A DNA stretch of 64,000 nt, from positions 160,001 to 224,000 of the forward strand of contig CAWEPK010000010.1 in NCBI GenBank assembly GCA_963810935.1. The letters are read 5' to 3'. Positions 1-22,719 of the stretch are shown one piece after another. The notes beneath the pieces were generated by a model, which was not told the DNA's origin, did not search any database, and saw only the letters and a list, made by a program, of their open reading frames with translations. Position 1 is the stretch's first letter; each line of letters opens with the position of its first letter. Source of the stretch: an uncultured delta proteobacterium (GTDB taxonomy: Bacteria; Desulfobacterota; Syntrophorhabdia; Syntrophorhabdales; WCHB1-27). The position numbers and the translations under genes were made by a program.

Positions 1-256
1 TTGCCTTCGCAAAGTCCCTTACCTGCCTGGGGTTTACCACCACTACGGGGAGTTTGCGTAAGGCCAGGGTTTCTACTACAGGTATCTGGTACCCTCCGGT
101 GGCCTCCAGCACCACCAGCCCAGGGCGCGCATCTGAGAGGAACCGGCTGAGTTCCTTTCGTCCCTCATCATTGTTGAGGAAGCTCTTTTGCGTACCGGGC
201 GTAATGAAGACTTCCAACGTATCCTTTGCCACATCGATGCCTGCGAACTTTTCCAC
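1..256 (-). CDS. IS110-family DEDD recombinase/transposase, N-terminal part (runs off window start; not in ORF track)
   Basis: Manual translation from GTG at 256 (RBS AAGGAGG at 270-264): MEKFAGIDVAKDTLEVFITPGTQKSFLNNDEGRKELSRFLSDARPGLVVLEATGGYQIPVVETLALRKLPVVVVNPRQVRDFAKA. GIDVAK, LEATGGY and VNPRQVRDFAKA are IS110 RuvC-like domain motifs. Confidence 0.95.
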   Translation of the reverse strand, partial: MEKFAGIDVAKDTLEVFITPGTQKSFLNNDEGRKELSRFLSDARPGLVVLEATGGYQIPVVETLALRKLPVVVVNPRQVRDFAKA

Positions 257-260
257 TATC

Positions 261-440
261 GCTCCTCCTTGCGAAATGCGGGCTCATGAGGCCCAAGCAA
301 CTGTCCGAGCTTGTAGGGAATGGGGTGTGACGACCCGCGCTCGGCGCCGGGATCATATGTCCCAAGGGGGAATCGGCCTGTCACACCCTGATGCTTCCTG
401 GGATAAGTATAGTCAGATGACAGCAGGTAAGAAAACATGC
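261..440 (-). ncRNA. Putative bridge RNA (target-binding loop plus donor-binding loop)
   Basis: Target loop is closed by perfect stem GGGTGTGAC (388-380) / GTCACACCC (331-323), with internal hairpin GGGA..TCCC flanked by ATTCCCCCT and GCGCCGAG. Donor loop is closed by GCTC/GAGC, with internal hairpin GGGC..GCCC flanked by ACAGTTGCT and CGCAAG. 5' boundary is approximate. Confidence 0.85.
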
Positions 441-453
441 ATATAAGATACAA

Positions 454-500
454 GGGGGGAGGCTCCGCGGGCTTTGCCCGTGGAGGGGGCGCTGAGCCCC
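454..500. repeat. REP-like GC-rich hairpin at the IS110 insertion site, just downstream of glgX
   Basis: GGGGGGAGG-CTCCGCGGGC-TTT-GCCCGTGGAG-GGGGCGCTGAGCCCC: 10-bp stem with one wobble. Only one copy is seen in this window, so repeat status is inferred. Confidence 0.45.
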
Positions 501-510
501 AATAATTGTT

Positions 511-2622
511 CTATTCCCGCCTGCGCAGCACGATGAGCGACCGGCTTTCGGTCTCAATGCTCTGGCCGGCGTTGAACGTATCGGGCTCTTCTGCAAACTT
601 CCCTTCGTGGGTGGAGAAATTTTTTTCCCAGACCTTGCCCCATTTCCCCTCAGGAAGGGTGAATACCAGCTTTTCGTAGTGGGCATTAAGTATAAGATAG
701 AAGCTGTCGTCAACGATGCGCTGCCCGAATTCGTCCTGGTCGGGTATGGCCTGGCCTTCCAGGAAGACGGCCATCGATTTGGCGAAGCCTTCCTGCCACT
801 CGCCCTGCGTCATCTTCGTGCCGTTGGGGTTGAACCAGGCGATGTCCTCTATCTCGGAGCCTTCGACGGCCCCCTTGAACCACCTTGGACGCTGGAATAT
901 CTGGTGGTTGAGGCGGAAATGTATAAGACGGCTGGTAAAATAGATGAGGTCCCTGTCTGCCGCATCCCAGTCGTACCAGGAGATCTCGTTGTCCTGGCAG
1001 TAAGTGTTGTTGTTCCCTCTCTGGGTGCGGCCCATCTCGTCCCCGCCGGAGATCATGGGGATACCCTGGGAAAGGAGCAGGGTCGCGAGAAAATTCCTCT
1101 TCTGCTTCGCACGAAGCGCCAGCACGCCTGTGTCGTCCGTAGCCCCTTCGGCGCCGCAGTTCCAGGAACGGTTGTTGCTCTCCCCGTCCCTGTTGTCCTC
1201 ACCGTTCGCCTCGTTGTGCTTCTCATTATAGGAGACGAGGTCGGATAGCGTAAAACCGTCATGGCACGTATTAAAGTTGATGCTCGCGAACGGACGCCGG
1301 CCGGTACTCTCGTAGAGGTCTGAGCTTCCCATGATGCGGCCGGCCATTTCTGCCAGGGTGCACCCTTGGCCCCGCCAGAAGTCACGCACGCAGTCCCTGT
1401 ATTTTCCGTTCCACTCGGACCACAGGGGCGGGAAGTTGCCTACCTGGTACCCGCCTTCCCCGATATCCCATGGCTCGGCAATCAGCTTCACCTGCCCCAC
1501 TACAGGGTCCTGCTGGATGATATCGAAGAAAGCGGAAAGGCGGTCCACCTCATGCAGTTCCCTGGCCAGGGCGGCGGCTAAGTCGAACCGGAAGCCGTCC
1601 ACGTGCATCTCCAGCACCCAGTACCGCAGCGAATCCATGATAAGCTGCAGCACGTGCGGGTGGCGCATGTTAAGGCTGTTGCCGGTCCCCGTATAGTCCA
1701 TGTAGTGGCGCAGGTCGTCCGGGTTGAGCCGGTAATAGGCGGAGTTGTCGATGCCTTTGAAGCAGAGCATCGGCCCCAGGTGGTTCCCTTCGGCTGTATG
1801 GTTATAGACGACGTCGAGGATCACCTCGATGTCCTGCCCGTGCAGGTTCTTTACCATCTGCTTGAAATCCTGCACCTGCTGGCCCGCCTGCCCCCTGCTC
1901 GAATATTCGTTGTGGGGGGCGAAGAACCCTATCGAGTCATATCCCCAGTAATTGCGAAGTCCCCTCTCGATGAGGTGCTTCTGGTGGATAAACTGGTGCA
2001 CGGGCAGCAGTTCCACGGCCGTGACTCCCAGCCTTTTCAGGTATCCGACCACGGCCGGGTGCGCCAGGCCCGCGTAGGTGCCGCGTATTTCTTCGGGCAC
2101 TTCCGGGTTCCTGGCGGTCAATCCTTTCACGTGCGTCTCGTAGACTATCGTCTGCTGCCAGGGCACCCGCAGGGGCTCGTCATGGTCCCAGTCGAAGAAA
2201 GGGTTTACGACGATGCACTTTGGGACGAATCGGCCGCTGTCGTCCTCGTTCTTGCTTCCTTCCGGTTTGTCGAAATAGTAGGGAAAGACGGCCTGGTTCC
2301 AATCTATCTGGCCATCAATCGCCTTGGCGTACGGGTCGAGGAGCAGTTTTGCCGGGTTGCAGAAAAGGCCTTTCTCGGGCGCCCACGGGCCGTGAACCCG
2401 GAACCCGTACCTTTGGCCCGGCTCGATGTTCGGCAGGTAGCCGTGCCAGCAGAAGGCCGTTTTTTCCGGGAGGTCTACACGCCTTTCCCCGTGCGCCTCG
2501 TCGAAGAGGCAAAGCTCGACCCTCTCCGCTGTTTCAGAGAAGATCGAAAAGTTAGTTCCCGTCCCGTTATAGGTCGCGCCCAGGGGATATGGCCGCCCCG
2601 GCCAGACCTTGAAGAAACCCAA
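511..2622 (-). CDS. glgX: Glycogen debranching enzyme (isoamylase, GH13)
   Basis: 703 aa; PYPLGAT, NYWGY, DVVYNHTAEG, DGFRFDLA, AEPWD, CHDGFTL and NNNTYCQDNE motifs; TTG start with GGAGG RBS. Confidence 0.97.
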   Translation of the reverse strand: MGFFKVWPGRPYPLGATYNGTGTNFSIFSETAERVELCLFDEAHGERRVDLPEKTAFCWHGYLPNIEPGQRYGFRVHGPWAPEKGLFCNPAKLLLDPYAKAIDGQIDWNQAVFPYYFDKPEGSKNEDDSGRFVPKCIVVNPFFDWDHDEPLRVPWQQTIVYETHVKGLTARNPEVPEEIRGTYAGLAHPAVVGYLKRLGVTAVELLPVHQFIHQKHLIERGLRNYWGYDSIGFFAPHNEYSSRGQAGQQVQDFKQMVKNLHGQDIEVILDVVYNHTAEGNHLGPMLCFKGIDNSAYYRLNPDDLRHYMDYTGTGNSLNMRHPHVLQLIMDSLRYWVLEMHVDGFRFDLAAALARELHEVDRLSAFFDIIQQDPVVGQVKLIAEPWDIGEGGYQVGNFPPLWSEWNGKYRDCVRDFWRGQGCTLAEMAGRIMGSSDLYESTGRRPFASINFNTCHDGFTLSDLVSYNEKHNEANGEDNRDGESNNRSWNCGAEGATDDTGVLALRAKQKRNFLATLLLSQGIPMISGGDEMGRTQRGNNNTYCQDNEISWYDWDAADRDLIYFTSRLIHFRLNHQIFQRPRWFKGAVEGSEIEDIAWFNPNGTKMTQGEWQEGFAKSMAVFLEGQAIPDQDEFGQRIVDDSFYLILNAHYEKLVFTLPEGKWGKVWEKNFSTHEGKFAEEPDTFNAGQSIETESRSLIVLRRRE

Positions 2623-21561: not shown

Positions 21562-22719
21562 ATGGATTTCAAATGGTCCGATGAACTGGAATCAATGCGC
21601 AAAATGGCTTACGATTTTGCGGTCAAAAATGTCAAGCCTACCATGGAAGAAGATGAGAAGGAGCACAAATACCGCCCCGAGCTGCTGAAGAAAATGGGTT
21701 CACAGGGAATGTTCGCCTGCCTGGCGCCCGAGAAGTTCGGAGGGCTCGGACTGGAGCAGGGCCACCTGGCTGCCAGCCTTATGGCTACTGAATTTGCCAG
21801 GGTCAGCCCGTCCTGGGGTCTTCCCTTCAACCTTCAGATGAACGGTCCCCAGAACGTATTGCTCAAGTTCGCGAATGAGGAGCAGAAAGAGCAGTTCCTG
21901 CCGGGCCTCATCGCCGGGACGAGCGGCGGCTGCTTCGCCATCACCGAGCCCAACTCCGGGTCGGACGTGGCAAGCATGAGGACGACCGCGACGGAAGTGG
22001 ACGGCGGCTGGGTCCTGAACGGCTCGAAGACGTGGATATCGGGTGTTCCTTACTGCGGCTGCGGCGTTGTTTACGCCATGACGGACAAGGCCGCCAAGCA
22101 CAAGGGCATGTCCGCCTTCTTCATCGACTTCAATACTCCCGGCATCACGCAGCGGGCGATCACCACGAAGCTTGGCCTCCACTGCGCCCCCACCGGGGAG
22201 ATATTCTTCGAAGAGGCCAAAATCCCCAAGACGGCCCTAGTCGGCAAGCTCGGCCAGGGATTCCAGATATGCATGACCATGCTCAATTTCACGCGGCTCA
22301 GCTCGGCTGCGCGCGCCCTGGGCGTCGCCCAGAGCTGCATCGAGGAAGCATGCAAGTACGCTAACGAAAGGGAGCAGTTCGGCCAGCCCATCGGCCAGTT
22401 CCAGATGGTCCAGGAGCAGATCGCCAGGATGTACGTCGAGCATGAGGCTGCGAAGCTCCTCGTCTATAAGGCGGCATGGCAGAAGGACCTTGGCATGAAC
22501 AACACGCTCGAGACGTCGATGGCCAAGTACTACGCGGCCGAATCGGCCAACTTCTGCGCATCGGAAGCGGTCAAGATTTTCGGCTCCTACGGGTTCTCCT
22601 CCGAGTACCCTGTCGAAAGATTTCTGAGGGACGCCAAGTCCTACCAGATAGTCGAAGGAACGTCAAACGTACAGAAGATGATCATCGCCCAATTCGCTTT
22701 GGGATACAGAAAAAGCTAA
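21562..22719 (+). CDS. Acyl-CoA dehydrogenase, probably non-decarboxylating glutaryl-CoA dehydrogenase
   Basis: FAITEPNSGSDV, LNGSKTWIS, KLGLHCAPTGE, LNFTRLS, REQFGQPIGQFQM, EYPVERFLRDA..YQIVEGT; MDF start after AGGAG/GAGGG; next gene is a biotin carrier. Confidence 0.85.
   Translation: MDFKWSDELESMRKMAYDFAVKNVKPTMEEDEKEHKYRPELLKKMGSQGMFACLAPEKFGGLGLEQGHLAASLMATEFARVSPSWGLPFNLQMNGPQNVLLKFANEEQKEQFLPGLIAGTSGGCFAITEPNSGSDVASMRTTATEVDGGWVLNGSKTWISGVPYCGCGVVYAMTDKAAKHKGMSAFFIDFNTPGITQRAITTKLGLHCAPTGEIFFEEAKIPKTALVGKLGQGFQICMTMLNFTRLSSAARALGVAQSCIEEACKYANEREQFGQPIGQFQMVQEQIARMYVEHEAAKLLVYKAAWQKDLGMNNTLETSMAKYYAAESANFCASEAVKIFGSYGFSSEYPVERFLRDAKSYQIVEGTSNVQKMIIAQFALGYRKS

What the first reader, a model, noticed from the sequence alone, without database searches (positions are those of the whole stretch)
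257..454. IS110 non-coding end encodes a bispecific bridge RNA with four readable guide segments
Seen in sequence: upstream of an IS110 DEDD recombinase that the ORF track missed, the minus strand has two large internal loops. Loop 1 is closed by a perfect 9-bp stem (GGGTGTGAC/GTCACACCC) and holds ATTCCCCCT (373-365), a GGGA/TCCC hairpin, then GCGCCGAG (347-340). Loop 2 is closed by GCTC/GAGC and holds ACAGTTGCT (304-296), a GGGC/GCCC hairpin, then CGCAAG (273-268). Both left segments end in CT and both right segments end in AG, the complement of the CT core. Established knowledge: this is the layout of the IS621 bridge RNA (left/right target and left/right donor guides), which programs IS110 recombination by pairing with target and donor DNA. 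Inference: this is a naturally reprogrammed RNA-guided recombinase. Predicted target is about (N)TYCCCC-CT-CG(GC) and predicted donor junction is ACAGTTG-CT-TG(TAT). The right donor guide pairs with the element's own left end CTTGT (4 Watson-Crick pairs plus a G-T wobble).
Basis: partly seen in the sequence, partly recalled or inferred. Interest (0 to 1): 0.92.

Follow-up and report, generated by a model that had tools for sequence, protein, structure and literature searches.

The report
Bridge-RNA-guided IS110 insertion sequence
This is a small jumping gene of the IS110 family whose left end encodes a two-loop guide RNA that matches both its own ends and the repeat it inserts into; it is a clear example of an already described system, not a new one.

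Summary
The window's left edge cuts a 1147-bp IS110-family element on the minus strand, flanked by a duplicated CT. Its 307-aa DEDD/Ser recombinase starts at window 256 and continues outside the window. The neighbouring DNA shows a right end of ...ACAGTTG-CT followed by CGGCGC, as predicted. All four 100%-identical copies in the genome (three full, one cut by a contig end) sit in one repeat at GCCTCCCCC-CT-CGGCGC. The right target guide pairs with CT plus six flank bases without mismatch. The left target guide pairs with 8 of 9, one a G·U.

A sibling element (81% aa) sits 6 nt upstream in the same repeat family. Only its target loop has changed, and it matches the new site.

A covariance model found the same RNA in 25 of 48 homologous loci searched. 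Stems covary: 94.6% of cells are paired and 20 of 25 pairs show double changes. Guides track their flanks in 0 of 10,000 permutations. Handshake positions, the split right donor guide and a circle-junction promoter also follow IS621.

Verdict: a new member of a known kind (Durrant 2024; Hiraizumi 2024). RNA expression and recombination were not tested. Interest is low to moderate.

The parts
455..508 (-). Left half of the REP-like target repeat, ...GGGGCTCAGCGCCCC / CTCCACGGGCAAAGCCCGCGGAG hairpin / CCTCCCCC. It ends in the left target CTCCCCC.
   Evidence: About 50 other places in the genome match it. 86 matches to its left-half motif are listed. It is shared by the flanks of all the element's copies.
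453..454 (-). CT core dinucleotide at the left junction, duplicated at the right junction outside the window.
   Evidence: The identical copies are bounded by CT on both sides, and homology to uninterrupted repeats stops here.
445..452 (-). Left end (right donor, TGTATCTT) holding the -10-like hexamer TATCTT at 450-445.
   Evidence: Joining right end to left end in a script gives TTGACA-17 nt-TATCTT, 10 of 12. No sigma-70-like site is found in the integrated copy.
391..438 (-). Predicted 5' stem-loop of the bridge RNA. The pairing register is uncertain.
   Evidence: The centroid fold pairs 438-430 with 399-391. An alternative register was seen by eye. Covariation was not tested.
323..388 (-). 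Target-binding loop.
- Stem 388-380 with 331-323.
- Bulged A379.
- Stem 378-375 with 335-332.
- G374.
- Left target guide 373-365.
- Hairpin 363-349.
- G348.
- Right target guide 347-340.
- Handshake guide 339-338.
   Evidence: Helices 1 and 2 covary. The guides match the flanks of the four identical copies. Across homologues guides match cognate flanks better than non-cognate ones. The handshake base pairs with donor position 7 in 17 of 19 loci.
261..310 (-). Donor-binding loop.
- Stem 310-307 with 264-261.
- Left donor guide 304-297, plus T296.
- Hairpin 294-280.
- Split right donor guide 277-276 and 272-268.
- Handshake guide 267-266.
- The 3' strand overlaps the ribosome-binding site AGGAGG.
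   Evidence: Helices 3 and 4 covary. The left donor guide equals the right end ACAGTTGC. The split guide pairs with left-end bases 6-7 in 18 of 21 loci. The handshake base pairs with target position 7 in 19 of 21 loci.
1..256 (-). First 85 codons of the 307-aa IS110 recombinase (GTG start at 256-254). The rest of the gene and the right end lie outside the window at G000:C10:159306-160000.
   Evidence: Pfam gives DEDD_Tnp_IS110 at 3e-24 and Transposase_20 at 3e-18. PDB matches are ISCro4 at 5e-42 and IS621 at 8e-40, with the five catalytic residues aligned.

Best explanation
Window 257-454 (minus strand) is the non-coding left end of an intact, recently active IS110-family insertion sequence. 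The element is 1147 bp plus a duplicated CT. The left end encodes an IS621-type bridge RNA.

Shown here:
- The element's ends and its four insertion sites.
- The covarying two-loop RNA architecture.
- Complementarity of all four guide segments to the target flanks and to the element's own ends.
- Conservation of the DEDD and Ser catalytic residues.

Inferred from the IS621 work:
- The element excises as a circle, and the RE-LE junction assembles a promoter (TTGACA-17-TATCTT).
- That promoter transcribes the roughly 180-nt RNA and probably the recombinase message behind it.
- The recombinase tetramer holds the RNA.
- Loop 1 pairs with the repeat target CTCCCCC-CT-CGGCGC: the left guide with the bottom strand and the right guide with the top strand.
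- Loop 2 pairs with the circle junction ACAGTTG-CT-TGTAT.
- The serine cuts next to CT. The two handshake bases after each right guide (C339 to donor G7, G267 to target C7) help strand exchange.
- The element is thereby inserted into a REP-like repeat.
For: Copies and ends:
- Three full copies and one copy cut by a contig end are 100% identical. All are bounded by GCCTCCCCC|CT...ACAGTTGCT|CGGCGCGGCGC.
- The right target guide GCGCCGAG is the exact reverse complement of CT+CGGCGC.
- The left donor guide equals the right end, and the right donor guide pairs with CTTGTAT.

Sibling element:
- The C8 sibling (81% aa, intact ORF) is inserted at GCGGAGC-CT-CCCCGC.
- Its loop 1 reads GATGAGCCT / GCGGGGAG, while loop 2 and both ends are unchanged.

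Homologues:
- A model built from 13 left ends hits 27 of 50 sources given at E<=0.01.
- 94.6% of cells are paired and 20 of 25 pairs covary.
- Left guide against cognate flank averages 3.86 of 7, against 1.62 non-cognate (21 loci).
- Right guide averages 4.89 of 6, against 1.69 non-cognate (18 loci).
- No permutation of 10,000 reached either observed sum.
- Handshake positions pair in 19 of 21 and 17 of 19 loci.
- The junction promoter pattern is split across RE and LE in 16 of 17 loci.

Protein:
- D8, E51, D93, D96 and S231 align with IS621 D11, E60, D102, D105 and S241 (residue roles from PMC11208158, passages read).
Against: - No RNA data: no listed run is RNA, so transcription, RNA ends and recombinase binding are unshown.
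- The fold is not more stable than shuffles (z = +0.45).
- No Rfam family matched.
- The left target guide has two non-Watson-Crick positions against the real flank.
- No circle junction or clear empty allele appeared in the laid contigs.
- The permutation tests ignore relatedness among the loci. In the homologues the right ends were located with the left donor guide itself, so that match is circular there. It is not circular for this element.
- Two homologues (L018, L016) match their right flank at only 2 and 3 of 6 positions.
Confidence: 0.9

Rival explanations
1. The structured left end is only a leader that controls recombinase expression. For example it could hide the ribosome-binding site in the loop-2 stem, or give a small regulatory RNA as once proposed for ISPpu9. 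On this view target choice is made by the protein.
For: The 3' strand of the loop-2 stem overlaps the AGGAGG ribosome-binding site just before the GTG start. PMC11208160 (passages read) mentions the earlier idea for ISPpu9.
Against: A leader role does not explain why loop sequences change together with the flanking target. This is seen in the sibling and across 18-21 homologues. It also does not explain why handshake bases track the other DNA partner. A regulatory side role is not excluded and could coexist with guiding.
Confidence: 0.05
2. The element is a decayed or immobile relic. The guide-like matches are then leftovers of an ancestor and no recombination occurs now.
For: There is no direct evidence of movement. 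No circle junction or convincing empty site was seen in the laid contigs.
Against: There are three full and one partial copies at 100% identity in different flanks. The 307-aa ORF is intact with all five catalytic residues, and the guides and ends are intact.
Confidence: 0.04
3. The complementarities are chance matches in GC-rich repeat DNA.
For: The target is C/G-rich and low in complexity. Minimum free energy is no better than shuffles.
Against: There are exact matches of 8, 8 and 9 bases at the exact junctions. None of 10,000 permutations reached the observed guide-flank agreement, and the slid-partner controls collapse.
Confidence: 0.01

Closest known systems
IS621 of Escherichia coli with its bridge RNA (Durrant et al. 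2024, PMC11208160; Hiraizumi et al. 2024, PMC11208158; PDB 8wt6)
   Same: - Recombinase fold family, phmmer E = 8e-40, with all five catalytic residues aligned.
- RNA encoded in the left end, with a 5' stem-loop plus two internal-loop modules.
- 9-nt left target guide and CT core.
- 8-nt left donor guide.
- Split right donor guide with a G·T pair.
- The donor reads ...-CT-TGTAT.
- Two-base handshake guides.
- Promoter split across the circle junction.
- A REP-type target.
   Different: - No DNA similarity to E. coli genomes.
- The recombinase is 307 aa, while the 8wt6 chain is 328 residues.
- The right target guide is 8 nt here and 4 nt in IS621. The paper notes that some orthologues have longer ones.
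- Three bases, not two, are looped out of the right donor guide.
- Different target sequence and host: the closest genome hit is titled as an uncultured delta proteobacterium MAG.
ISCro4 transposase (PDB 9t56)
   Same: It is the best solved-structure match, E = 5e-42 over residues 4-306.
   Different: Only the protein was compared. Its RNA and ends were not examined here.
ISMno7 of Methylobacterium nodulans (named IS110-like element on plasmid NC_011887.1)
   Same: It is the closest named element found in the plasmid collection, at 50.8% aa over 98% of the protein. Its left end is hit by the model built here at 72.6 bits, E = 5e-20.
   Different: At about 51% identity it is a different IS, with different guides.
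ISPpu10 of Pseudomonas putida (bioRxiv 10.64898/2026.03.19.712850, abstract read)
   Same: It is an IS110 element whose insertions all lie in copies of one intergenic repeat with a GC-rich stem-loop 5' of the target. Here a covarying hairpin (CTCCACGGGC-AAA-GCCCGCGGAG) ends one base before the left target.
   Different: Whether the hairpin matters here is untested. The sibling's target overlaps the hairpin's 3' strand.
IS1111-group elements with seekRNA (named in the abstract listing of PMC13604230; the location of their RNA is recalled, not checked)
   Same: Same recombinase superfamily and RNA-guided logic.
   Different: As recalled, their guide RNA lies downstream of the recombinase gene. 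Here it lies upstream, as in the IS110 group.

Membership tests
IS110-group insertion sequence with bridge RNA (IS621 type) | Recombinase with a DEDD RuvC-like domain plus a Tnp domain carrying the catalytic serine | tested here: met
   PF01548 at 3e-24 and PF02371 at 3e-18. D8, E51, D93, D96 and S231 align with IS621 D11, E60, D102, D105 and S241 (chain numbering is +2).
IS110-group insertion sequence with bridge RNA (IS621 type) | Long non-coding left end upstream of the recombinase gene, with no inverted terminal repeats needed, and a CT core at both junctions | tested here: met
   There are 198 nt between the left CT and the start codon. CT is present at both ends of all copies.
IS110-group insertion sequence with bridge RNA (IS621 type) | Two stem-loops with large internal loops whose stems covary | tested here: met
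   There are 25 pairs in 4 helices. 94.6% of cells are paired, 20 pairs have double changes, and slid controls give 34-47%. The alignment was fitted to the model, which favours the structure.
IS110-group insertion sequence with bridge RNA (IS621 type) | Loop 1: the left guide equals the top strand of the left target plus core, and the right guide is complementary to the core plus right target | tested here: met
   For this element the left guide agrees at 7 of 9 identical bases plus one G·U, and the right guide at 8 of 8. The sibling covaries. Across homologues 0 of 10,000 permutations reach the observed agreement.
IS110-group insertion sequence with bridge RNA (IS621 type) | Loop 2: the left guide equals the right end, and a split right guide is complementary to the left end | tested here: met
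   ACAGTTGC equals the right end. CAAG pairs with CTTG, G272 with T, and AT 277-276 with AT. The distal pair covaries in 18 of 21 loci, for example AC with GT, TT with AA and TG with CA.
IS110-group insertion sequence with bridge RNA (IS621 type) | Handshake guides: the base after each right guide pairs with position 7 of the non-cognate DNA and not with the cognate one | tested here: met
   The loop-2 handshake base pairs with target position 7 in 19 of 21 loci (G with C, A with T). The loop-1 base pairs with donor position 7 in 17 of 19 loci. No loop-1 base pairs with its cognate target in the 17 loci where that could be scored.
IS110-group insertion sequence with bridge RNA (IS621 type) | Conserved unpaired A and G bases that flank the guides (flipped-out A, syn G in IS621) | tested here: met
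   Among 13 left ends the invariant or near-invariant columns are A14 (A379), G19 (G374), A40 (A353), G45 (G348), G87 (G306), A109 (A284) and G114 (G279). Their conformations cannot be tested here.
IS110-group insertion sequence with bridge RNA (IS621 type) | Sigma-70-type promoter assembled across the RE-LE junction of the circle | tested here: met
   TTGACA-17-TATCTT, with the -35 in the right end and the -10 in the left end. 16 of 17 loci show the same split. None is found in the integrated copy. This is in silico only.
IS110-group insertion sequence with bridge RNA (IS621 type) | The RNA is made, binds the recombinase and directs recombination | not testable with these tools
   No RNA run is listed. 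This needs bench work.

The most novel reading that the evidence does not exclude
Two sibling IS110 elements in one genome have divided one REP-like repeat family between them. Only the target loop was reprogrammed, which shifts the insertion point by 6 nt.

The multi-copy element is confined to a minority repeat variant that has C instead of G just before the CT core. Only about three good unoccupied sites of that variant remain, so target supply may cap its copy number.

The covarying hairpin that ends one base before the target may be a second, structural recognition determinant, as reported for ISPpu10.
Probability: 0.3. Interest if true: 0.4.

Novelty: new member of a known kind. Interest (0 to 1): 0.25.

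Why it matters
It shows that the bridge-RNA rules worked out on IS621 can be read directly from raw sequence of an uncultured soil anaerobe.

It offers a compact orthologue: a 307-aa recombinase with a 17-bp target specification and an 8-nt right target guide.

With the sibling element it gives a natural, matched pair in which only the target loop differs. That pair is a ready-made retargeting control for anyone mining new bridge recombinases.

For genome annotation, it explains a set of identical 1.15-kb insertions in REP-like repeats.

Tried and rejected
- **Rfam:** an E<=10 search of window 1-800 gave no relevant family.
- **Thermodynamics:** minimum free energy against shuffles gave no signal.
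- **E. coli DNA:** a blastn 'distant' search of the whole element against E. coli genomes gave no match, so IS621 could not be fetched for a direct RNA alignment.
- **Sequencing runs:** no RNA holder is listed.
- **Laid contigs:** four DNA contig runs showed joints at the repeat. One skips exactly 1147 bases (805 to 1953, one contig, side 21). With 21 letters on the shorter side in a repeat present many times, it is most likely another, uninterrupted repeat copy and not an empty allele. No RE-LE circle joint was listed.
- **Earlier notes of this scan:** nothing near this place, and nothing on this element elsewhere in the genome.
- **Right ends not found with the left donor guide:** L040, L029, L031, L035, L036 and L043. 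L030 has no downstream DNA.
- **Left ends not found by the motif rule:** L047, L022, L048 and L036.
- **Flawed scores kept in the mean:** in the left-guide score, L023, L024 and L027 scored -1 because their loop has no CT at the expected place. L034 scored 0 because I first took the wrong left-end candidate (repaired).
- **Handshake rule misses:** the automatic rule mis-picked the guide in L026 and L031.
- **Model misses:** model R1 did not reach E<=0.01 in 23 of the 48 homologous loci given. These include L038, L041 and L050, which by eye share the layout, and all the loci at 24-32% protein identity.
- **Loci not given to the model:** ten of the 58 loci. L013-15, L020, L025, L032, L044 and L045 are further copies in one MAG. 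L037 and L042 are partial.

Full report
**What is in the sequence**

- A 9-bp stem, 388-380 with 331-323, encloses a large loop.
- That loop carries ATTCCCCCT (373-365), a GGGA/TCCC hairpin (363-349) and GCGCCGAG (347-340).
- A 4-bp stem, 310-307 with 264-261, encloses a second loop.
- The second loop carries ACAGTTGCT (304-296), a GGGC/GCCC hairpin (294-280) and CGCAAG (273-268).

Directly downstream, a GTG at 256 opens an ORF that runs off the window after 85 codons.

The window is G000:C10:160001-224000. In the contig the ORF is 307 aa. It matches Pfam DEDD_Tnp_IS110 (3e-24) and Transposase_20 (3e-18). It also matches the solved ISCro4 (9t56, 5e-42) and IS621 (8wt6, 8e-40) recombinases. In the IS621 alignment D8, E51, D93, D96 and S231 stand opposite the published catalytic D11, E60, D102, D105 and S241 (roles from PMC11208158, passages read).

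**Ends, copies and target**

The element is 1149 bp counting both CT dinucleotides.

The genome holds three full copies (C10, C18, C7) and one copy cut by a contig end (C20), all 100% identical. It also holds one 79%-identical relative on C8.

All four identical copies have the same junctions, GCCTCCCCC|CT ... ACAGTTGCT|CGGCGCGGCGC. The flanks are the two halves of a REP-like repeat.
- The 56 bases left of the element recur at about 50 other places.
- A motif for the repeat's left half is found 86 times.

Uninterrupted copies read ...GGAGCCTCCCC(G/C)CTCGGCGCGGCGC.... The G form is the majority. The element uses the minority C form. Exact unoccupied sites are few: TCCCCCCTCGGCGC occurs twice and TTCCCCCTCGGCGC once.

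**Guides against DNA for this element**

I use the pairing scheme of IS621 (PMC11208160 and PMC11208158, passages read).
- The right target guide GCGCCGAG is the perfect reverse complement of CT+CGGCGC.
- The left target guide ATTCCCCCT equals the flank CTCCCCCCT at 7 of 9 positions. One of the two differences would be a U·G pair with the bottom strand.
- The left donor guide equals the right end.
- CAAG (271-268) pairs with the left end's CTTG. G272 lies opposite T, and AT (277-276) can pair with bases 6-7 of CTTGTAT.

The last point is the split right donor guide seen in the IS621 structure (A157-U158 / C162-G165, with G161·T). Here three bases are looped out instead of two.

The two bases after each right guide behave as handshake guides.
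- C339 can pair with donor G7 but not with target C7.
- G267 can pair with target C7 but not with donor G7.

**A natural guide swap**

The C8 relative has an intact 307-aa recombinase, 81% identical. It has the same ends and the same loop 2. It sits 6 nt upstream in the same repeat family, at GCGGAGC-CT-CCCCGC.

Its loop 1 reads GATGAGCCT and GCGGGGAG. These match that site: 6 contiguous bases plus one more on the left, and 8 of 8 on the right.

**Homologues**

A scan of one genome per species returned 58 loci encoding relatives.

I aligned 13 left ends and wrote the four helices onto the alignment. From that I built a covariance model of 137 positions and 25 pairs. I searched 50 sources: the two own-genome loci and 48 of the 58 homologous loci. 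Ten were left out as further copies in one MAG or as partial. 27 sources matched at E<=0.01.

On the resulting alignment:
- 94.6% of 649 cells form standard pairs.
- 20 of 25 pairs show changes on both sides.
- The covariation score is 0.666, against 0.07-0.14 when partners are slid by 1-3 columns.
- No shuffle of 500 reached the observed percentage paired or the score.

The alignment is fitted to the model, which favours the structure. Even so, 14 of the 27 rows were not in the seed.

I located left ends by a conserved end motif. I located right ends by the left donor guide together with a conserved TTGAC box.
- Left guides match their own left flank at a mean of 3.86 of 7 positions, against 1.62 for non-cognate pairs (21 loci). 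Four flawed scores are kept in that mean.
- Right guides match at 4.89 of 6, against 1.69 (18 loci).
- No permutation of 10,000 reached either observed sum.

Relatedness inflates such tests. However, close pairs differ in a compensating way. Examples are L021/L028, L027/L024, L034/L039 and L018/L030, besides the window's element and its sibling.

Two loci fit poorly on the right: L018 at 2 of 6 and L016 at 3 of 6.

Other features also follow IS621.
- The loop-2 handshake base pairs with target position 7 in 19 of 21 loci. It is G where the target has C and A where it has T.
- The loop-1 handshake base pairs with donor position 7 in 17 of 19 loci.
- The distal part of the right donor guide pairs with left-end bases 6-7 in 18 of 21 loci, with AC/GT, TT/AA and TG/CA variants.
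- The ninth base of the left donor segment varies (T, C, G, A) while the end stays CT. Only eight bases are conserved pairs, as in IS621.

**Promoter**

No sigma-70-like site is found in the integrated copy. Joining right end to left end in a script gives TTGACA-17 nt-TATCTT (10 of 12), with the -35 in the right end and the -10 in the left end. The same split appears in 16 of 17 loci. This matches the published reconstitution of a promoter in the circle (PMC11208160, passages read).

**What is not shown**

- There is no RNA evidence.
- Contig data gave no circle junction and no convincing empty allele.
- The fold is not unusually stable.
- Rfam has no matching family.

Transcription, binding and recombination are inferred by homology.

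**Comparison and verdict**

The element meets every defining feature of IS621-type bridge-RNA elements that can be tested from sequence.

It is not a described IS. The closest named element found in the plasmid collection is ISMno7, at 51% protein identity. The model built here also hits the left end of ISMno7, at 72.6 bits.

The differences from IS621 are of degree: a longer right target guide, one more looped-out base, a smaller protein, and another host and target. IS110 elements in REP-type repeats are known, for example ISPpu9 (abstract seen in the listing) and ISPpu10 (abstract).

It is therefore a new member of a known kind.

Noticed in passing
window 455-508; genome-wide, listed: A REP-like repeat family of roughly 85 nt gives 86 matches to its left-half motif. 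Its central hairpin shows compensating variants: CACGAGC/GCTCGTG, GCCGGGC/GCCCGGC and CATGAGC/GCTCATG. It often occurs in tandem arrays. Several copies carry a nested insert of about 36 nt (CGACCCTTCCCTCCTTACGTCGGGCGGGTGCCCCGG).
   Followed up: partly
G000:C8:756069-757216 (locus L005 about 806-1953, minus strand): A single-copy sibling IS (79% DNA identity, 81% aa, intact ORF) is inserted 6 nt upstream in the same repeat family. Only its target loop has changed.
   Followed up: yes
window 511-2622, minus strand: The gene just upstream of the repeat is a 703-aa isoamylase/GlgX-type debranching enzyme, with CBM_48, the alpha-amylase catalytic domain and a weak Isoamylase_C match. The repeat and the IS lie in the intergenic space after its stop codon.
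   Followed up: partly
loci L022, L023, L024, L027 (Gemmatimonas-type MAGs): Position 7 of the left donor guide is mismatched with the right end in all four. This fits the published mismatch tolerance at that position in IS621. Their left target guide also lacks the CT at the usual place.
   Followed up: no
locus L028 490-664: The hairpin of the donor-binding loop carries an insertion of about 60 nt compared with its relative L021.
   Followed up: no
window 22374-22424, plus strand: There is a weak partial hit of the bridge-RNA model here (10.9 bits, E = 0.06, model positions 12-63). It is probably chance.
   Followed up: no
L001 318-656, plus strand (outside the window, right of the element): A 112-aa ORF with no Pfam match lies beyond the right flank repeat.
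   Followed up: no
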